In this document: positions 27,244 through 64,000 of the stretch, in pieces
How positions within the stretch are numbered: position 1 is the first letter of the stretch
Layout: each line of letters opens with the position of its first letter
Assembly (NCBI GenBank): GCA_019056785.1
Contig: DXJV01000019.1
Coordinates: 1-64,000 of the forward strand
Length of the DNA stretch: 64,000 bases
Source: Candidatus Heimdallarchaeota archaeon
GTDB lineage: Archaea; Asgardarchaeota; Heimdallarchaeia; JABLTI01
Reading direction: 5' to 3'
Position numbers and translations under genes: made by a program
Notes under the pieces: model-generated
What the model was told of the DNA's origin: nothing
Seen by the model: only the letters and a program-made list of their open reading frames with translations
Databases searched by the model: none

Positions 27244-27386
27244 GTAACGAATTGGAAAAATCCACCCAAATTTAATGCGAAAAAACTCAACTACGATTTA
27301 TTAATATTCGAATACTTATGAGCATTAAAAAGTGAAAGGGAGCTTATAGTATTATTCTATGAGTGGAAAGACCGAGACTTGTGCAA

Positions 27387-29000
27387 ATGTCTACTAAAAA
27401 GAAAACTTCTCCGGGAAAAAAAAAGCAAGAATCCGAAGAAGGGAATATCGAATATAAATGGAAATTAATTGAACCTACTGCAACACGGTTCGAACATCTT
27501 GTCTCCCAATTGAAATTCAGGCTTCTAGAGGGACAAGGAGAAGCGATCTACGAAATTGGTATTGAAGATAGCGGTTACCCTCGAGGAATAAGTGAAAAAG
27601 AACTAAAATTATCTATAGCCACTTTAGAAAAAATGGCAAAAAAGCTTGATGCTGATATCACCGTTTTAAGAACACGTGATGGCGAAAGTGGCAAAGTGGC
27701 AGAAGTATTGGTGAGACGGTTAGCCGAGGGGGAATTTCTCGAAATACGCGTTGCCGTTGCTGGCAATGTTGACAGTGGGAAAAGCACTCTCGTTGGTGTA
27801 CTCACTCGAGGTAGCCTTGACAATGGCCGTGGGGCAGCACGCATTAATGTTTTTCGGCATAAGCATGAACTAGAAACAGGGCGAACCTCGAGTATTAGCC
27901 AGCAGCTTTTGGGCTTCGACAGTAAAGGAGAAATTGTTAATTACCATTTGATCGAAGATCATAATTGGACGAACATTATTGAAGCAAGTTCGAAAATTAT
28001 TACGTTCATTGATTTGGGCGGGCATGAGAAATATCTAAAAACTACCCTTTTTGGGTTGACAGGTCACCAACCGGATTATGTTTTACTTGTTATTGGAGCT
28101 AATATGGGTATTGTTGGAATGACAAGAGAACATTTAGGCATTGCCTTAGCATTAAAAGTGCCAATCATTATTATCATAACAAAAATAGACATCTGCCCTG
28201 AGCACATCTTGAAAAAGACCATTGGTGATATTACAAAACTGTTGAAAATTCCAGGCTCAAATAAGATTCCGATAATCATTAGAAATGAAGATGATGTAGT
28301 TGTAAGCGCTAAAAACATCACGTCAAGAAGAATTGCACCAATCTTTTTAATTTCGAACGTGACAGGGGAAAACCTCGATTTGGTTCGAAAATTCCTTAAT
28401 CTTTTACCGGCGAATAAAAATTGGGAGGAACATATAAACGAGCCGGTGGAATTCCACATAGATGAGACTTTTTCAGTGACAGGAGTAGGAACAGTTGTTG
28501 CTGGAACACTTATTAGCGGGACAGTTTCCGTGGACAACATTTTACTCTTAGGTCCTGATGAGGTTGGTGAATTTAGAGAAGTAAAAATTAAAAGTATACA
28601 TAATAAACGCGTTTCTGTTCGAAGAGTTATTTCCGGGCAAACTGCCACATTCGCTTTACGAAAAGTGCAACGGTCATCAATTAGAAAGGGGATGGTGCTT
28701 TTAGACACAACTATTAACCCCAAAGTTGCCATGCAATTTGAAGCAGAAGTTTTGGTTCTTTATCATTCAACTACTATCCAAAAAAACTACCAGGCAGTGA
28801 TACATTGCGGGACCATAAGACAAACAGCCCGAATTGTTTCAATGGATAAAGAAGTAATACGAACCGGCGATAAAGCAAAAGTGATCTTTGAGTTTCTCTA
28901 CTATCCAGAGTATTTGAAGGAAGGCAGACAGATCATCTTCCGAGAAGGAAGAACAAAAGGTATTGGAAAAATTACAAAAATTTTTTACAATAAGAAATGA
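27387..29000 (+). CDS. GTPBP1/GTPBP2-family translational GTPase
   Basis: N-domain EEGNIEYK..RFEHLVSQLKFRLLEGQGEAIYEIG; GNVDSGKST, RHKHELETGRTSS, DLGGHEKYLKTT, TKID; EF-Tu-like domains II/III (FREGRTKGIG). Confidence 0.93.
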   Translation: MSTKKKTSPGKKKQESEEGNIEYKWKLIEPTATRFEHLVSQLKFRLLEGQGEAIYEIGIEDSGYPRGISEKELKLSIATLEKMAKKLDADITVLRTRDGESGKVAEVLVRRLAEGEFLEIRVAVAGNVDSGKSTLVGVLTRGSLDNGRGAARINVFRHKHELETGRTSSISQQLLGFDSKGEIVNYHLIEDHNWTNIIEASSKIITFIDLGGHEKYLKTTLFGLTGHQPDYVLLVIGANMGIVGMTREHLGIALALKVPIIIIITKIDICPEHILKKTIGDITKLLKIPGSNKIPIIIRNEDDVVVSAKNITSRRIAPIFLISNVTGENLDLVRKFLNLLPANKNWEEHINEPVEFHIDETFSVTGVGTVVAGTLISGTVSVDNILLLGPDEVGEFREVKIKSIHNKRVSVRRVISGQTATFALRKVQRSSIRKGMVLLDTTINPKVAMQFEAEVLVLYHSTTIQKNYQAVIHCGTIRQTARIVSMDKEVIRTGDKAKVIFEFLYYPEYLKEGRQIIFREGRTKGIGKITKIFYNKK

Positions 29001-29114: not shown

Positions 29115-30044
29115 ATGACGAAAAAAGACTACAAGGTAATTATTGTCGGTGCAGGGCCTGCGGGTTTAACTGCAGCAATCTATACTGCTCGAGCAGGTTT
29201 ATCGACCTTAGTAATTGGCAATCCCTATGAATCACAAGTGGCAAAATTGGGAGTAATCGAGAATTATCCTGGGTTTAGGAAAGGGGTTCAAGGGATGCAA
29301 TTAATCGAAGAAATGGCAAATCAAACACAAGCAAATGGCGGAAAAATTGTCTATGCAAATGTAATTTCCATCGAGAAAAAGGGAGAAACCTTCCTTGTGA
29401 AGAGTGATGAAGATGAGGAATTCCAGGCAAAGGTAATCATCATGGCAATGGGTTCTCGCTACCGGAAGATGCGCATTGAAGGTGAAGAGGAATATTATGC
29501 TAAGGGAGTTTCTTATTGTACAGTTTGTGATGGAGCACTTTTCAAAGATAAACCAACAGCAATAATTGGTTATGGCGATGGCGCAGCAATTGGCGCATTA
29601 TATCTTGCAAATTTTTCAACAAAGGTATATGTTATCACACCAAAGAAAGAATTAGGCGCTGAAGCAATTTACATGCACCGTCTTAAAACAAAAGATAACA
29701 TCGAAATTTTTTACAAAGCAAAAGTAAAAAAAATTGCCGGGGATGAATTTGTTAATAGCATCATTTTCAAAGACAGTGAAGGAAAGGAGCATAAAATTGC
29801 GGTTGATGGAGTGTTTATTGAATATGGAACCGTTCCAAATACGCTTCTCGCAAAGCAACTTGGAGTTGAAATCGACGAGAAACATTTCATTATTATTGAT
29901 AATGTGACCCTAGCTACAAACATCCCAGGCGTTTATGCTGCAGGGGATGTTACCGGCCGGATACGGCAAATCGCTACTGCTGTTGGTGATGGCTGCACAG
30001 CTGCAACTTATGCGCAAGAATATCTCGAAAAACTTGAGGATTGA
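29115..30044 (+). CDS. trxB: Thioredoxin reductase-like FAD/NAD(P)H disulfide oxidoreductase
   Basis: GAGPAGLTAAIY, IENYPG, GVSYCTVCDG, TNIPGVYAAGD. Confidence 0.92.
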   Translation: MTKKDYKVIIVGAGPAGLTAAIYTARAGLSTLVIGNPYESQVAKLGVIENYPGFRKGVQGMQLIEEMANQTQANGGKIVYANVISIEKKGETFLVKSDEDEEFQAKVIIMAMGSRYRKMRIEGEEEYYAKGVSYCTVCDGALFKDKPTAIIGYGDGAAIGALYLANFSTKVYVITPKKELGAEAIYMHRLKTKDNIEIFYKAKVKKIAGDEFVNSIIFKDSEGKEHKIAVDGVFIEYGTVPNTLLAKQLGVEIDEKHFIIIDNVTLATNIPGVYAAGDVTGRIRQIATAVGDGCTAATYAQEYLEKLED

Positions 30045-58125: not shown

Positions 58126-59496
58126 ATGGGTAAAATTACAGATCCAATTTATGAGCAAGTCGTGAAAAGAAATGCTCATGAGCCTGAATTTCATCAGGCA
58201 GTTAAGGAAGTGCTTGACTCAATCGAGCCAGCACTCGAACAACACCCAGAATTCGTAAAGGCAAAAATAGTCGAAAGACTAGTGGAACCAGAACGAGTGA
58301 TTCATTTCCGAGTCGCCTGGGTGGATGACAAAGGCGAAGTGCAAGTTAACCGCGGTTTCAGAATTCAATTCAATGGTGCGATTGGTCCTTACAAGGGTGG
58401 ACTGCGTTTCCATCCAACAGTTTACAGCGGTATTTTAAAATTCCTCGCCTTTGAACAAATTTTTAAGAATGCACTTACCGGCTTACCAATGGGTGGCGCA
58501 AAAGGTGGTTCCGATTTTGATCCTCATGGCAAATCAGATGGCGAAATTATGCGCTTCTGTCAAGCTTTCATGAATGAGCTCTATCGTCACATTGATGCTG
58601 ATTTAGATGTTCCTGCTGGAGACATTGGTGTTGGTGGCCGCGAAATTGGCTATCTCTTTGGTCAATATCGAAAAATCAAGAACATCTGGCATGGTGTCTT
58701 AACCGGCAAAGGATATGAATATGGTGGTTCTTTGGGCCGTCCTGAAGCCACCGGATTTGGCGCCGTTTGGTTCGCAGAAGAAATGCTCAAAGCTCGTGGT
58801 GATACGACCGGCTTCAAAGGCAAGACTGTTGCTATTTCTGGCGCGGGTAATGTCGCTCAACATGCTTCACAACTTGCCATGGAAATGGGTGCAAAAGTTG
58901 TCACTCTCTCTGACTCTACCGGATTCATTTACGATAAGAAAGGTTTAGACAAAGAGAAATGGAAATTCGTTATGCACTTAAAGAATGTCAAACGTGGCCG
59001 TATAAAAGAATATGCTGAGAAATTCAAAGGAGTAGAATATTACACCTACAACGAAGATAAGACTTTGAAGAGCCCATGGTACGTACCAGAAATTGACATT
59101 GCCATTCCGAGTGCAACCCAAAATGAAGTTGACTTTGATGAAGCTAAAGCCCTTGTTAAAAACGGCTGTATCGTTGTGAGCGAAGGAGCAAATATGCCCT
59201 GTGTTCCAAAGGCTGTTGATTACTTCATTGAGAAAGGTGTTTCCTTTGGCCCAGGCAAAGCTGCTAATGCTGGCGGTGTTGCCACATCTGGTTTGGAAAT
59301 GACCCAAAACAGTGAACGACGACAATGGAGCTTCGAAAAAGTCATTGACGAACTCCATAAAATAATGATCAACATCCACAACACTGCTTACAAGACCGCC
59401 GAGAAATACGGCTATCCAGGCAACTATGTTGTTGGTGCAAACATTGCCGGCTTCTTGAAAGTCGCAAAAGCAATGCTTGCCCAAGGTGTTCTTTAA
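58126..59496 (+). CDS. gdhA: NADP-specific glutamate dehydrogenase
   Basis: GPYKGGLRFHP, MGGAKGGSDFDP, DVPAGDIGVGGREIG, RPEATG, EGANMP, KAANAGGV. Confidence 0.97.
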   Translation: MGKITDPIYEQVVKRNAHEPEFHQAVKEVLDSIEPALEQHPEFVKAKIVERLVEPERVIHFRVAWVDDKGEVQVNRGFRIQFNGAIGPYKGGLRFHPTVYSGILKFLAFEQIFKNALTGLPMGGAKGGSDFDPHGKSDGEIMRFCQAFMNELYRHIDADLDVPAGDIGVGGREIGYLFGQYRKIKNIWHGVLTGKGYEYGGSLGRPEATGFGAVWFAEEMLKARGDTTGFKGKTVAISGAGNVAQHASQLAMEMGAKVVTLSDSTGFIYDKKGLDKEKWKFVMHLKNVKRGRIKEYAEKFKGVEYYTYNEDKTLKSPWYVPEIDIAIPSATQNEVDFDEAKALVKNGCIVVSEGANMPCVPKAVDYFIEKGVSFGPGKAANAGGVATSGLEMTQNSERRQWSFEKVIDELHKIMINIHNTAYKTAEKYGYPGNYVVGANIAGFLKVAKAMLAQGVL

Positions 59497-59697
59497 ACCA
59501 ACCTTCGAATAAAGAAAGGGTTTTTACAGCCTTTTCTCTTCATTTTTCTAGTGAATTTATTTTTTAAAAACAAGGTTGAAGTTACTTGGAATTGAGGGGA
59601 GATTTTTTTGTGATTATACACCCCAATGATAAACTTTTTAACCACCTTAAAAAACTTATCTCGCAACTTTTAAACTAACTCTCGAGGAACACACATC

Positions 59698-60555
59698 ATG
59701 TTTGAAATTGTACGGAAGGAATGGTTACACGAAGTCATCTTCCTTATCGAAGTAAAAGCCCCGGCAATCGCCCGAAAGATAAAGGCAGGCAATTTTTTAG
59801 TCTTTCGTGCAAAAGAAGGCGGAGAACGCATTCCCATAACCGTGGCAGAATATGATAGGAAGAAAGGAACGGTCACATGCATTATTCAGGTTGTTGGAAA
59901 GTCCACAAAACTTCTTTCAACCTTTGAAAAGGGGGACTATATCCAAGATGTAGTCGGCCCCTTGGGCAAGCCAACTGAGATTAAGAAATATGGCCTCGTT
60001 GGCATTGTCTCAGGAGGATTAGGGATTCCCCTCGCAAATTTGGTCGCAAAAGAACTGCGAAACGCAGGCAACGAAGTTATTGGAATGGTTGGAGCCCGAA
60101 CAAAGGAGCTTTTAGTTTGGGAAGAAGAGATGTCAAAATATTGTACAGAAATGGATTACTGCACAGACGATGGCTCATTTGGTATGAAAGGATTTACAAC
60201 AAACTTACTCGAGAAAAAGATCAAAGAACTCGAGAAAGAAGGGAAGAAATTCGACATGATCTTCACAGTTGGACCAACAATAATGATGAAATTCATCGCA
60301 GGAATAACCAAGAAATATGGCATACACACCATTGCAAGTTTAAATCCAATCATGGTTGATGGAACCGGCATGTGTGGCGCTTGCAGGGTCACAGTTGGCG
60401 GCGAAATTAAATTCGCTTGTGTTGACGGACCGGAATTTGATGCCCATCAAGTCGATTTTGACGAGCTTTTAATGCGCCTTGGCCAATACAAAAAGTATGA
60501 GAAGGTCTCATATGACCTTTACTTGAAAGAATGCTGTGGAGGAAAACAGAAATGA
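59698..60555 (+). CDS. nfnA: NfnA / SudB small subunit (FAD, 2Fe-2S)
   Basis: GERIPIT, GPLG, TDDGS, SLNPIMVDGTGMCGACRV..CVDGPEFD. Confidence 0.92.
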   Translation: MFEIVRKEWLHEVIFLIEVKAPAIARKIKAGNFLVFRAKEGGERIPITVAEYDRKKGTVTCIIQVVGKSTKLLSTFEKGDYIQDVVGPLGKPTEIKKYGLVGIVSGGLGIPLANLVAKELRNAGNEVIGMVGARTKELLVWEEEMSKYCTEMDYCTDDGSFGMKGFTTNLLEKKIKELEKEGKKFDMIFTVGPTIMMKFIAGITKKYGIHTIASLNPIMVDGTGMCGACRVTVGGEIKFACVDGPEFDAHQVDFDELLMRLGQYKKYEKVSYDLYLKECCGGKQK

Positions 60556-62000
60556 CTGAAGAGAAGAAAGAACGCAAACCCCAAAAGCGCTCGGATAAGA
60601 GCCCGAAAAAGACCCCAATGCGCGAACAACCCCCTGAGGAGCGCATCAAGAATTTCCTAGAGGTCCCATTTGGCTATACAGAGAAAGAAGCTTTACTTGA
60701 AGCGGAACGATGCTTACATTGTCGCCGACCCTTCTGTGTTGAAGGATGCCCTGTTGAGATTAACATTCCCGCTTTTATTTCAGCAATTCTTGATAAAGAT
60801 TATCGGCGTGGGATAAATATCATTAAAGAAACGAATGTACTTCCCGCAATTTGTGGGAGAGTATGCCCACAAGAGAATCAATGCGAAAAAGCATGCGTCA
60901 TGGGTCGTAAAGATGGTTGGGATCCTGTCGGTATTGGTCGTTTGGAACGGTTCTTAGCTGATTGGGAATATGCAAATGGCCGTGAGACACCTAAAATCGC
61001 TGAACCAACAGGGAAAAAGGTAGCAGTTATAGGTTCTGGTCCTGCTGGATTGGTTGCTGCTGCTGACCTTGCACGCTATGGTCATAAAGTCACTCTTTTT
61101 GAAAGCCTTCACAAAGGTGGTGGTGTACTTGTATATGGCATCCCTGAATTCCGGTTGCCAAAAAGCATCGTTGCAAAAGAACTCGAGACTCTAGAGCACA
61201 TGGGTGTCGAGATTAAATATGACACAGTTATAGGCTTAACCTACACAATCGACGAGCTCTTTGAGATGGGCTATGAAGCAATTTTCATTGGCACAGGAGC
61301 AGGCCTTCCAAGATACCTCGGCATTCCCGGGGAAAACTTAAAGGGCGTTTATTTTGCCAACGAATTTCTCACACGTGCAAACCTTATGGAAGCCTACAAG
61401 TTCCCAGAAAAAGCGGATACACCGATAAACGTTGGTAAAAAGGTCATCACTATTGGCGCTGGTAACGTTGCTATGGATTGTGCCCGCACGGCTCTTCGAT
61501 TAGGGGCAGAAAAATCCATGATCGTTTATAGACGGTCACTTGCAGAAGCGCCTGCACGAGAAGAAGAGATCCATCATGCGGAAGAAGAAGGAGTAGAATT
61601 CCATCTCTTGACCACACCCCTTGCCATCATGGGTGACAAGGATAACAATGTCATTGGTCTAGAATGCCAGGAATGTGAACTTGGTGAGCCCGATGAATCT
61701 GGTCGTTGCAGACCCATACCTATCGAAGATGCTTGCTTTGACCTCGAGTGTGACACATTAATTATTGCCATTGGCCAAAGACCAAACCCACTTGTTCCTC
61801 GAAATACTCCCAACCTTAAAACACACCGTTGGGGCGGCATTATTGTAAATGAAGAGACACTAGAGACATCTATCCCCGGCGTTTTTGCAGGCGGTGACAT
61901 CGTTAGCGGTGCAGCTACTGTCATTCTTGCAATGGGCGCTGGAAGAAAAGCAGCAAAATCGATGCATGAATACTTGATGAATAAAGACAAAAAGGCCTAA
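60552..62000 (+). CDS. nfnB: NfnB / SudA large subunit (GltD-like, 2x4Fe-4S, FAD)
   Basis: EAERCLHC..CVEGCPV, CGRVCPQENQCE, GSGPAGL, YGIPEFRLPK, GAGNVAMD, VYRR. ATGA overlap with nfnA. Confidence 0.92.
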   Translation: MTEEKKERKPQKRSDKSPKKTPMREQPPEERIKNFLEVPFGYTEKEALLEAERCLHCRRPFCVEGCPVEINIPAFISAILDKDYRRGINIIKETNVLPAICGRVCPQENQCEKACVMGRKDGWDPVGIGRLERFLADWEYANGRETPKIAEPTGKKVAVIGSGPAGLVAAADLARYGHKVTLFESLHKGGGVLVYGIPEFRLPKSIVAKELETLEHMGVEIKYDTVIGLTYTIDELFEMGYEAIFIGTGAGLPRYLGIPGENLKGVYFANEFLTRANLMEAYKFPEKADTPINVGKKVITIGAGNVAMDCARTALRLGAEKSMIVYRRSLAEAPAREEEIHHAEEEGVEFHLLTTPLAIMGDKDNNVIGLECQECELGEPDESGRCRPIPIEDACFDLECDTLIIAIGQRPNPLVPRNTPNLKTHRWGGIIVNEETLETSIPGVFAGGDIVSGAATVILAMGAGRKAAKSMHEYLMNKDKKA

Positions 62001-62160
62001 GTGTGATAATTGAGAATCGCACTCAATTACTCACTTCTCATTCTTTTTTTCCTCATAATAATTTCTTTACTTTTTTTAGAGAAAAAAGTATTATTCGCCC
62101 AATTAAATAAATAAAAAATGCTTTAAACAAAGATTCGAAGAGTCAATAGAGAAATGAACC

Positions 62161-63771
62161 ATGAACAACTTAATCGATACAGAATGCCTTATTATTAATC
62201 TTCTTTACCCTAACACTATTTTACTTGATTATTTACAAGACAAAGAACCTTTGCGAAGCTTCTTTCCTGGAAAAAATAAAGTCTTCCATCCAGTAACTTT
62301 TCGTGGTGATAGAGGTATCATTCAAGAGCTTTTAAGGACCTATAACGCAACGATTGAAGCCCCACAAGAGACTTTTGCTAATATTGAATTGATAACAGAA
62401 GAACATGTTAAATTTGTTATTACCGGACAACAACCAGGTTTTTTAACAGGCCCTCTTTATACGATTTACAAAACACTTTCAGCCATTAATTATGCCGAGA
62501 AATATTCCACAAAAGAACTCAAACTCATTCCTCTGTTTTGGAACGCTTCAGAAGATCATGATGTTGAAGAAGTCAACAATATCTGGATCTTGAATAAACA
62601 AAATGAAATTGTGCCTGTCGAATTAAAAGATAAAGAAATGCTGAATAAAAGTCTTGAACGGTTACCTCTAAATAAAAAATCCATTAGAAAGCTCATTGAA
62701 CACATGCTTTATTCTTTTCCAGAAACAGAATATACCAAAGACCTGTTTGATGAGTATATTAATGATGCTCTCATTAAATCTGAGAGATGGGGTGAGTTTT
62801 TCAGTCGACTTATGGTAAAACTAATGGGCAAATGGGGTTTAATTCTTTTGGAGCCAAAAATTCTGCGCCCTCATTTAACTGATTTTTTCATTGATATTAC
62901 CTCAAAAGTCCAGCATTATAATAAAATCTTCCAAAAAACAACTGATGAACTTACAAGAATGGGTTATCGCCCCAAAATGCACAAGAAAGAGAATATTGTA
63001 GGACTCTTTTATATTGATAAGGATCATTGCCGGGAGAACATTATTAAAACTGAAAAGGGGGACTTTCTTATCGGGGGGCATTGGCAGTTAACTCTTGAGG
63101 AATTAGTGGATCGCATTAAAGCTGAACCGCAGAATTTTAGCACAAATGCAATCTTCCGACCCCTTGCACAAGACTTAATGATACCAACATATATTTTCAT
63201 AGGCGGTCCGAGTGAAATTGGCTACCATATTCAATTAAAAGACCTTTATCATGAATTCTCTCTTCAACAACCGAACCTCATTTTTAGAATGGGGGCAACC
63301 ATCATTGAAAAGCACATCAACAAAATTTTAGAAAAATACTCTGTGAAAATCACAGACCTAAGCAATGTTGAAGAGCTAACCAATCGTCTTTTACGTTCAG
63401 AAAACAAAGAGTTTCTGGAGCCATATTTTACTATAATTAACGTGACACTCGAGAACTTGCAAACAAAACTCAATGAAATCAACAAAGAGCTTGCAGGGAG
63501 AGTCACTGGACGAAGTCAAATGATAAAGAAAACGCTGAAAGATATCGAAAAGATCTACATCAAATATGTTAAGGAAAATAACAAAATAATGATCAACCAA
63601 TTAGAAAAAGCACGCGCCTATCTCTTTCCATGTAATAAGCCACAAGAAAGAGTATTCAACATTTTCCAATATTTAAATAAATATTCACCAAATCTTTTAA
63701 TTTGTATTAAGAATCTCCTTGCTCAGACTGAACCATGTAATCATGTGGTGTTAAAATGTTGGATGTTTTAA
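62161..63771 (+). CDS. bshC: Bacillithiol biosynthesis cysteine-adding enzyme BshC
   Basis: VITGQQPGFLTGPLYTIYK, PLFWNASEDHD, FSTNAIFRPLAQD, YIFIGGPSEIGY, helical insertion, PQERVFN; 536 aa. Confidence 0.9.
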   Translation: MNNLIDTECLIINLLYPNTILLDYLQDKEPLRSFFPGKNKVFHPVTFRGDRGIIQELLRTYNATIEAPQETFANIELITEEHVKFVITGQQPGFLTGPLYTIYKTLSAINYAEKYSTKELKLIPLFWNASEDHDVEEVNNIWILNKQNEIVPVELKDKEMLNKSLERLPLNKKSIRKLIEHMLYSFPETEYTKDLFDEYINDALIKSERWGEFFSRLMVKLMGKWGLILLEPKILRPHLTDFFIDITSKVQHYNKIFQKTTDELTRMGYRPKMHKKENIVGLFYIDKDHCRENIIKTEKGDFLIGGHWQLTLEELVDRIKAEPQNFSTNAIFRPLAQDLMIPTYIFIGGPSEIGYHIQLKDLYHEFSLQQPNLIFRMGATIIEKHINKILEKYSVKITDLSNVEELTNRLLRSENKEFLEPYFTIINVTLENLQTKLNEINKELAGRVTGRSQMIKKTLKDIEKIYIKYVKENNKIMINQLEKARAYLFPCNKPQERVFNIFQYLNKYSPNLLICIKNLLAQTEPCNHVVLKCWMF

Positions 63772-64000
63772 TTTTCGCCCCCCACCCAGACGATGCCGAG
63801 CTTGCTGCTGGTGGAACAATTGTGAAATTAGTGAAGCAAGATTTCAAAGTAGGAATAATTGATTTAACGGCAGGAGAAATGGGGACATATGGAACAAAAG
63901 AACAGCGATTAAAGGAAGCACAAACAGCAAAAAAAGTGCTGGGGATTAACTTGCGAGAGAATTTAGCCCTCCCAGATGGGAGGTTGCCATTTCTTAAAGA
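63756..64000 (+). CDS. bshB1: GlcNAc-malate deacetylase BshB1 (PIG-L family), partial, runs off window
   Basis: Not in the ORF track. ATG 63756 after GGTG reads MLDVLIFAPHPDDAELAAGGTIVKLVKQDFKVGIIDLTAGEMGTYGTKEQRLKEA..RENLALPDG. Overlaps the bshC end by 16 nt. Confidence 0.85.
   Translation, partial: MLDVLIFAPHPDDAELAAGGTIVKLVKQDFKVGIIDLTAGEMGTYGTKEQRLKEAQTAKKVLGINLRENLALPDGRLPFLK

What the first reader, a model, noticed from the sequence alone, without database searches (positions are those of the whole stretch)
62161..64000. Bacillithiol biosynthesis genes (bshC-bshB1) in an archaeon
Seen: a full-length BshC with its family motifs overlaps by 16 nt a PIG-L deacetylase (HPDD, DLT.GE...GT) that the ORF track missed. 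Established: BshA, BshB and BshC make bacillithiol, which is characterised in bacteria (Bacillota and others). The characterised archaeal low-molecular-weight thiols are CoA, gamma-Glu-Cys and CoM/CoB. Inference: this Asgard-like archaeon makes bacillithiol or a variant. bshA is not visible and may lie just past the window. Such genes may already have been noted in archaeal MAGs, but I know of no biochemical proof.
Basis: partly seen in the sequence, partly recalled or inferred. Interest (0 to 1): 0.75.

Follow-up and report, generated by a model that had tools for sequence, protein, structure and literature searches.

The report
Bacillithiol operon in a Heimdall archaeon
An Asgard (Heimdall-group) archaeon carries a complete, intact three-gene operon for the bacterial antioxidant thiol bacillithiol; the genes are real, but their presence in Asgard archaea is already published and annotated, and nobody has yet detected the compound in any archaeon.

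Summary
bshC (62161-63771, 536 aa) overlaps a PIG-L deacetylase gene by 16 nt. That gene runs off the window and is a full 228-aa BshB1. All three proteins score above NCBIfam's equivalog cut-offs and keep the residues I checked. The deacetylase matches solved BshB structures about twice as well as chitobiose deacetylases.

The contig is archaeal: it carries PolD small subunit, HAN nuclease and Roadblock. Relatives are titled Candidatus Heimdallarchaeota. The locus nfnAB-bshC-bshB1-bshA-roadblock is syntenic across the genus, and third-codon GC is typical of the genome, so neither a chimera nor a recent transfer fits.

Most likely product: bacillithiol or a near variant (about 0.7). None of the known partner enzymes (YpdA/Bdr, BrxA/B, BrxC, BstA) was found.

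It is not new. A 2020 review reported BshA and BshC homologues mostly in Asgard archaea, NCBI already names these proteins, and this scan has logged bacillithiol-type loci in at least 88 other genomes.

New details here: in 301 Asgard genomes sampled, a BshC above the cut-off occurs only in this family plus one other genome. Sister Heimdall families carry a divergent form with a cysteine-rich insert.

The parts
62161..63771 (+). bshC, putative cysteine-adding enzyme of bacillithiol synthesis (536 aa)
   Evidence: TIGR03998 equivalog 386.5 bits against cut-off 265.8. Both Pfam BshC domains are present. It scores 175.9 bits to B. subtilis BshC, PDB 4WBD. It keeps all 13 columns that are invariant in a 27-sequence alignment: G89 Q91 G97 K104 F126 D132 R291 G349 E352 Y355 P371 Q495 E496. 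It lacks the cysteine-rich insert seen in sister families.
63756..64000 (+). bshB1, GlcNAc-malate deacetylase. The first 81 codons are in the window; the gene continues to contig position 64442 (228 aa)
   Evidence: The full protein scores 221.9 bits on TIGR04001 against cut-off 182.5. Best solved relatives are TT1542 (157 bits), B. subtilis BshB1 6P2T (143 bits) and BC1534 2IXD (141 bits); chitobiose deacetylases reach 71-80 bits. H10, D12, D13, R51, R109, H110, D112 and H113 align with the metal ligands, catalytic Asp and substrate-binding residues listed in PMC4101496. Its start overlaps the end of bshC by 16 nt. bshA follows outside the window at contig 64460-65563 (367 aa from the ATG): TIGR03999 423.5 bits against 273.7, and 305 bits to B. 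anthracis BshA 3MBO with the E-x7-E motif kept.
62104..62160 (+). AT-rich intergenic stretch upstream of bshC with TATA-like boxes (TTAAATAAATAAAAAA, and TTTAAA at 62122-62127); candidate archaeal promoter
   Evidence: Read directly from the sequence. TTTAAA lies 34-39 nt before the ATG, and I saw no clear Shine-Dalgarno motif. By contrast, GGTG lies about 7 nt before the bshB1 start. This is inference only and was not tested.

Best explanation
The window ends inside a chromosomal, vertically maintained operon, bshC-bshB1-bshA, of a Heimdall-group Asgard archaeon. By homology to the bacterial pathway the steps are as follows. BshA (GT4) joins GlcNAc from UDP-GlcNAc to L-malate. BshB1, a zinc deacetylase, removes the acetyl group to give GlcN-malate. 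BshC adds cysteine to the free amine, giving bacillithiol or a very close derivative that serves as a cytoplasmic low-molecular-weight thiol. The 16-nt overlap and the 17-nt spacer suggest one transcript with coupled translation. What is shown: the genes are intact, all three pass equivalog thresholds, the checked catalytic and substrate-binding residues are kept, and the locus is conserved in the genus. What is inferred: the product, its role as a redox buffer, and how its disulfide is recycled, since no known bacillithiol reductase or bacilliredoxin was found.
For: All three proteins score above NCBIfam equivalog cut-offs: BshC 386.5 against 265.8, BshB1 221.9 against 182.5, BshA 423.5 against 273.7. 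Their best solved relatives are the characterised bacterial enzymes. BshB1 keeps the His-Asp-His metal site, the catalytic Asp, and the Arg/His residues whose mutation abolishes or strongly lowers activity on GlcNAc-malate (alignment; PMC4101496). BshC keeps every invariant column of the family. The contig is archaeal. At least part of the operon is present in every genome of the genus that was searched, and the gaps fall at contig ends or in low-completeness assemblies. Synteny nfnA-nfnB-bshC-bshB1-bshA-orf-roadblock-uppS is conserved in the two relatives with long enough flanks (L022, L024), and parts of it recur in the shorter loci. GC3 of the three genes lies at the 25th to 61st percentile of the genome's long ORFs. 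No protein outside the Asgard clade exceeds 35% identity to this BshC, so the genes have been resident for a long time.
Against: Bacillithiol has never been detected in any archaeon (PMC7278568). The BshC reaction has never been reconstituted in vitro even for bacteria, and its activated cysteine donor is unknown (PMC5790435), so function cannot be read from sequence with full confidence. This BshC is only 26-35% identical to the bacterial and other non-Asgard BshCs compared. No YpdA/Bdr reaches the cut-off in 11 genomes of the genus. BrxA/B, BrxC and BstA were not found in this genome, which is 82.5% complete. NmbA was not searched, so an N-methylated product is possible.
Confidence: 0.7

Rival explanations
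1. The operon makes a related but different cysteinyl-aminosugar thiol, for example with an acceptor other than malate or with an N-methylated or otherwise decorated cysteine, rather than bacillithiol itself.
For: This BshC is at most 35% identical to any protein outside the Asgard clade and sits on a long stem branch of 1.09. The known bacillithiol-specific partners are not found. N-methyl-bacillithiol exists in many bacteria (PMC12719100). Other Asgard lineages carry clearly rewired versions (scan notes).
Against: All three enzymes exceed equivalog cut-offs that are tuned for same-function calls. BshB1 keeps R51 and R109, the residues implicated in GlcNAc-malate binding. BshA is about 45-47% identical to Bacteroidota BshA proteins and scores 305 bits against the solved B. 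anthracis enzyme 3MBO.
Confidence: 0.2
2. The genes have another role, for example GlcN-malate or GlcNAc-malate as an end product, or BshC acting on another substrate, and no free thiol is made.
For: The BshC reaction is biochemically undefined. No bacillithiol-dependent enzymes were found in the genome.
Against: The three genes are tightly linked, with overlapping or near-abutting reading frames, and this arrangement is conserved across the genus and in other archaeal contigs. In bacteria this co-occurrence is what defines the bacillithiol pathway (PMC5790435). All BshC family-invariant residues are retained.
Confidence: 0.08
3. The segment is bacterial DNA wrongly joined to, or binned with, an archaeal genome.
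For: bshC has low overall GC (0.343, 3rd percentile). A few close homologues carry non-Asgard MAG labels (Bathyarchaeia, Thorarchaeota, Zixibacteria).
Against: Archaeal hallmark genes lie on the same contig on both sides. The same junctions with nfnB upstream and roadblock downstream recur in independent assemblies. GC3 is normal. The closest 37 protein clusters are nearly all labelled Asgard or Heimdall.
Confidence: 0.02

Closest known systems
Bacterial bacillithiol biosynthesis, BshA-BshB1/B2-BshC (B. subtilis, B. anthracis, S. aureus, Thermus, Deinococcus; PDB 5D00/3MBO, 6P2T/2IXD/1UAN, 4WBD)
   Same: The same three enzyme families are present, each above its equivalog cut-off. Domain architecture matches, including the BshC coiled-coil domain. 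The BshB metal and substrate residues and the BshA E-x7-E motif are kept.
   Different: The host is an archaeon. The three genes form one compact bshC-bshB1-bshA operon, whereas in B. subtilis bshC is transcribed apart from bshB1 and bshA (PMC5790435). BshC is only about 26-35% identical to the bacterial and other non-Asgard BshCs compared. No YpdA/Bdr, Brx or BstA partners were found.
Asgard BshA/BshC homologues reported by Rawat and Maupin-Furlow 2020 (PMC7278568) and annotated by NCBI
   Same: This is the same phenomenon. A 93%-identical cluster is already named 'BshC [Candidatus Heimdallarchaeota archaeon]'.
   Different: The review counted InterPro hits for BshA and BshC only. Shown here in addition: a bona fide BshB1, the operon structure, conserved synteny, and the restriction of cut-off-passing BshC to one family among 301 Asgard genomes sampled. 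A 2025 RefSeq survey stated that no archaeon has the complete pathway (PMC12719100).
Divergent BshC-like proteins of Heimdallarchaeaceae, Kariarchaeaceae and other Asgard lineages
   Same: They carry the same Pfam N-terminal domain (PF10079). They sit next to a bona fide BshA in the loci examined from f2 and f6, and about 3-6 kb from one in f4.
   Different: They reach only 37-92 bits on TIGR03998. They carry a cysteine-rich insert, CxxC...CxxC in the f3 representative and a close variant (CxC...CxxC) in the f4 one, that this BshC and the bacterial ones lack. They lie on a separate long branch.
Archaeal diacetylchitobiose deacetylase (Dac; PDB 3WL4, 3WE7, 8BGN)
   Same: It has the same LmbE/PIG-L fold and metal site.
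   Different: It scores 71-80 bits against 141-157 bits for BshB structures. The gene here is in an operon with bshC and bshA, not with chitin-degradation genes.

Membership tests
BshC (TIGR03998; PF10079 + PF24850) | Full-length match above the equivalog cut-off, with both the Rossmann-like and the coiled-coil domain | tested here: met
   386.5 bits against cut-off 265.8, model positions 4-523 of 529. PF10079 274.7 bits and PF24850 74.4 bits.
BshC (TIGR03998; PF10079 + PF24850) | Family-invariant residues (GQQ..G...K, FW..EDHD, RP...PT..GP.E..Y, QER) | tested here: met
   All 13 invariant columns of the 27-sequence alignment A1 are present. The alignment to 4WBD agrees.
BshC (TIGR03998; PF10079 + PF24850) | Genomic co-occurrence or linkage with bshA and bshB | tested here: met
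   The three genes are adjacent on contig C90, and the arrangement is conserved in the genus.
BshC (TIGR03998; PF10079 + PF24850) | Required for adding cysteine to GlcN-malate in vivo | not testable with these tools
   This needs genetics or complementation. The reaction has not been reconstituted in vitro even for bacteria (PMC5790435).
BshB1 (TIGR04001; LmbE/PIG-L) | Match above the equivalog cut-off | tested here: met
   221.9 bits against cut-off 182.5, model positions 2-226 of 226.
BshB1 (TIGR04001; LmbE/PIG-L) | H-x-D-D plus H metal site, catalytic Asp, and the Arg53/Arg109/His110 equivalents for GlcNAc-malate | tested here: met
   H10, D12, D13, R51, R109, H110 and H113 align with these residues. 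The residue list comes from PMC4101496.
BshA (TIGR03999; GT4) | Match above the equivalog cut-off, with the GT4 E-x7-E motif | tested here: met
   423.5 bits against cut-off 273.7. 305 bits to 3MBO, with E-SFGLAAL-E aligned to E-SFGLVLL-E.
BshA (TIGR03999; GT4) | L-malate as acceptor | not testable with these tools
   This needs an enzyme assay.
Complete bacillithiol redox system (YpdA/Bdr, BrxA/B, BrxC, BstA) | Presence of the dedicated disulfide reductase, bacilliredoxins and S-transferase | tested here: not met
   On TIGR04018 the best hit is 85-92 bits against a cut-off of 339.9, in 11 genomes of the genus. The hits checked in this genome are TrxR-like: the C3 copy shows a CATC motif and the window copy scores 324 bits on the TrxR model. 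TIGR04019, TIGR04191 and NF009807 gave no hit in this genome, which is 82.5% complete.
Diacetylchitobiose deacetylase (Dac) | Closer to Dac than to BshB | tested here: not met
   71-80 bits to Dac structures against 141-157 bits to BshB structures.

The most novel reading that the evidence does not exclude
One Heimdallarchaeial family uses authentic bacillithiol as its main cytoplasmic thiol but recycles it with non-canonical partners, for example one of its two TrxR paralogues or the CoADR/Nox-like flavoprotein. Its compact bshC-bshB-bshA operon would belong to an archaeal clade of such operons that is shared with Methanofastidiosia and other archaea. That would make bacillithiol a cross-domain thiol, with a reductase still to be discovered.
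Probability: 0.3. Interest if true: 0.55.

Novelty: new member of a known kind. Interest (0 to 1): 0.3.

Why it matters
Low-molecular-weight thiols set the redox chemistry of a cell. For Asgard archaea, the closest prokaryotic relatives of eukaryotes, the major thiol is not known. This family offers the cleanest archaeal test case, because all three enzymes are of the canonical type and could be used directly in complementation of Bacillus mutants or in enzyme assays. A positive result would extend bacillithiol to a second domain of life. It would also correct a recent statement that no archaeon has the pathway. The missing reductase and redoxins would then mark where to look for new partner enzymes. 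The idea itself is already published, so the value is confirmation and a good experimental handle, not discovery.

Tried and rejected
1. Chitobiose-deacetylase reading of the PIG-L gene: rejected, because it scores twice as high against BshB structures.

2. Bacterial chimera or recent transfer: rejected on archaeal flanks, genus-wide synteny, normal GC3 and at most 35% identity to anything outside the Asgard clade.

3. Separate origins for this BshC and the divergent Heimdall BshC: not settled. The free BshC tree places this clade (14 rows, support 100) inside a well-supported group of 28 with other archaeal-operon sequences, apart from the divergent clade. But the AU test does not reject the two Heimdall types as one clade (p 0.59; the constrained tree is 4.45 log-likelihood units better). 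The BshA tree is in effect a three-way split. Both clades have long stems, so long-branch effects cannot be excluded. I therefore make no claim about donor or direction.

4. Known partner enzymes YpdA, BrxA/B, BrxC and BstA: searched and not found.

5. Other thiol routes and oxygen use: GCS2 gives only a 51-residue match inside a 955-aa ORF. A CoADR/Nox-like protein scores 317 bits, far below the cut-off of 579. No heme-copper oxidase subunit I was found. None of these is decisive in an 82.5%-complete genome.

6. NmbA was not searched, because I had no model accession or permitted reference sequence for it.

7. I could not obtain taxon labels for most bacterial BshC sequences in the trees. The single genome-contig scan returned only four Heimdall loci.

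Full report
**What is in the sequence**

One search shows a 536-aa ORF at 62161-63771 (+). A second ORF starts at 63756 and runs off the window end. The two overlap by 16 nt.

The first protein carries both Pfam BshC domains. It scores 386.5 bits on the NCBIfam BshC equivalog model, whose cut-off is 265.8. The 81-aa fragment is a PIG-L deacetylase whose best match is BshB1.

The window is G000:C90:1-64000, and the contig continues to 71826 bp. On it the deacetylase is 228 aa (63756-64442) and scores 221.9 bits against the BshB1 cut-off of 182.5. A GT4 gene follows after a 17-nt spacer, at 64460-65563. It scores 423.5 bits against the BshA cut-off of 273.7. The unit is an operon in the order bshC-bshB1-bshA.

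**Are the enzymes intact?**

- **BshB1.** Its best solved relatives are Thermus TT1542 (157 bits), B. subtilis BshB1 6P2T (143 bits) and B. cereus BC1534 2IXD (141 bits). Archaeal diacetylchitobiose deacetylases reach only 71-80 bits. In those alignments H10, D12, D13, R51, R109, H110, D112 and H113 match the metal ligands, the catalytic Asp, and the Arg53/Arg109/His110 residues. Mutating those last three abolishes or strongly lowers BshB activity on GlcNAc-malate (PMC4101496).
- **BshA.** It scores 305 bits against B. anthracis BshA (3MBO) and keeps the E-x7-E motif.
- **BshC.** It scores 176 bits against B. subtilis BshC (4WBD). It keeps all 13 columns that are invariant in a 27-sequence alignment.

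**Whose genome is it?**

The same contig encodes a PolD small subunit, a HAN nuclease and a dihydropteroate-synthase-like protein with an MtrA-like region. Downstream of the operon it encodes Roadblock/LC7 and UppS. Related loci and proteins are titled Candidatus Heimdallarchaeota or Asgard group.

Eight relatives carry bshC, bshB1 and bshA in the same order. Where the flanks reach far enough, nfnB lies upstream (six loci). Two loci (L022, L024) show nfnA-nfnB-bshC-bshB1-bshA-orf-roadblock, and a third (L023) shows the downstream orf-roadblock-uppS. Identity to this genome is about 80% for NfnB, 57% for BshC, 60% for BshB1, 68-77% for BshA and 90% for Roadblock.

GC3 of the three bsh genes falls at the 25th to 61st percentile of the genome's long ORFs. 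The low overall GC of bshC reflects its amino-acid make-up. A bacterial chimera or a recent transfer is therefore very unlikely.

**Distribution**

- In the genus, BshC is above cut-off in 9 of 10 other genomes. The gaps in BshC, BshB1 and BshA fall at contig ends or in low-completeness assemblies.
- In a 301-genome sample of the phylum, a BshC above cut-off was found only in this family and in one genome of another family.
- Sister Heimdall families carry a divergent BshC-like protein of 539-564 aa. It scores only 37-92 bits on the BshC model but passes the Pfam domain cut-off. NCBI labels it Heimdallarchaeaceae or Kariarchaeaceae. In the loci examined from f2 and f6 it sits next to a bona fide BshA.
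- The divergent form carries a cysteine-rich insert: CxxC...CxxC in the f3 representative, CxC...CxxC in the f4 one and a reduced C...C form in f2. This BshC and the bacterial ones lack it.

**Origin**

Outside the Asgard clade, which spans 46-93% identity, nothing exceeds 35% identity to this BshC.

In a BshC tree the clade (14 rows, support 100, stem 1.09) sits in a well-supported group of 28 sequences. That group includes three further operons in the same gene order:
- one labelled Methanofastidiosia (L036);
- one on a contig with RadA and a family-B polymerase (L034);
- one interrupted by an IS605 element (L035).

The divergent Heimdall proteins form a separate long branch. However, an AU test does not reject joining the two Heimdall types (p 0.59). 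The BshA tree is a three-way split. I conclude only that residence in this family is old. Whether there was one ancient gain or two is unresolved.

**Partners**

- No YpdA/Bdr reaches the cut-off in 11 genomes of the genus. The hits checked in this genome are TrxR-like: the C3 copy shows a CATC motif and the window copy scores 324 bits on the TrxR model.
- BrxA/B, BrxC and BstA were not found in this genome, which is 82.5% complete.
- A CoADR/Nox-like flavoprotein exists but scores far below its cut-off.
- No credible glutamate-cysteine ligase and no heme-copper oxidase was found.

**What is known**

Rawat and Maupin-Furlow (2020, PMC7278568) reported 39 archaeal InterPro hits each for BshA and BshC, mostly in Asgard archaea. 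[quoted passage not shown] NCBI already names these proteins BshC and BshA. A 2025 RefSeq-based survey nevertheless states that no archaeon has the complete pathway (PMC12719100).

The BshC reaction itself has never been reconstituted in vitro (PMC5790435).

This scan has logged bacillithiol-type loci in at least 88 other genomes. The follow-up summaries listed there describe divergent or rewired versions. This locus differs in that all three enzymes are of the canonical type.

**Verdict**

The product is probably bacillithiol or a close variant (0.7). It is a new member of a known kind and the idea is already in print. Interest is modest (0.3). Its main value is as the cleanest archaeal candidate for a direct biochemical test.

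Noticed in passing
L028:6024-7643 (-), L031:6536-8167 (-), L032:6266-7960 (-), L040:1501-3255 (+): Sister Heimdall families carry a divergent BshC-like protein (37-92 bits on TIGR03998). Its cysteine-rich insert reads CxxC...CxxC in the f3 representative, CxC...CxxC in the f4 one and a reduced C...C in f2. In f2 and f6 it sits next to a bona fide BshA. In f6 a PIG-L gene completes a three-gene cluster.
   Followed up: partly
L031:8301-9212 (+) and L038:5401-6315 (-): In family f4 the divergent BshC-like gene sits head-to-head with a TrxR-like flavoprotein of about 303 aa (TIGR01292 150 bits, below cut-off). This is a candidate dedicated disulfide reductase for the pathway's product.
   Followed up: no
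window 58126-62000: NADP-glutamate dehydrogenase and an NfnAB-type pair (a sulfide-dehydrogenase-like FAD/NAD subunit plus a GltD-like subunit) lie directly upstream of bshC. The nfnAB-bshC junction is conserved in the genus. Any functional link, such as NADPH supply, is speculative.
   Followed up: partly
window 29115-30044 (+) and G000:C3:1048-1983 (-): There are two thioredoxin-reductase-like paralogues. The window copy scores 324 bits, just under the TrxR cut-off of 343. The C3 copy has a CATC motif. Both types recur across the genus.
   Followed up: partly
L035:7058-8559: An IS200/IS605 pair (Y1 transposase plus TnpB/Cas12f-like) and a metallo-beta-lactamase-fold gene are inserted between bshC and bshB in an otherwise colinear operon from another archaeal-looking contig.
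   Followed up: no
contig C90 65609-66454 (-), just past the window: A 281-aa ORF convergent on bshA has no Pfam or NCBIfam hit. It has hydrophobic stretches near both ends and many N-x-S/T sequons. It keeps its position in the genus but is only 33-42% identical, so it looks like a fast-evolving surface protein.
   Followed up: partly
window 27363-29000 (+): A 545-aa translational GTPase has an N-terminal extension of about 125 aa. It scores below the cut-offs of SelB (127 bits), EF-1alpha and EF-Tu, so it is an unassigned member of that superfamily.
   Followed up: no
G078:C95:1294-2730 (-): This is the only Asgard genome outside the window's family, among 301 sampled, with a BshC above cut-off (381 bits). 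I did not check whether it is of the same type, a transfer or contamination.
   Followed up: no
proteins P0011, P0021, P0292, P0296: Close homologues (56-69% identity) of this BshC and BshA carry MAG labels of Thorarchaeota, Bathyarchaeia and Zixibacteria. These are probably binning or labelling errors rather than real hosts.
   Followed up: no
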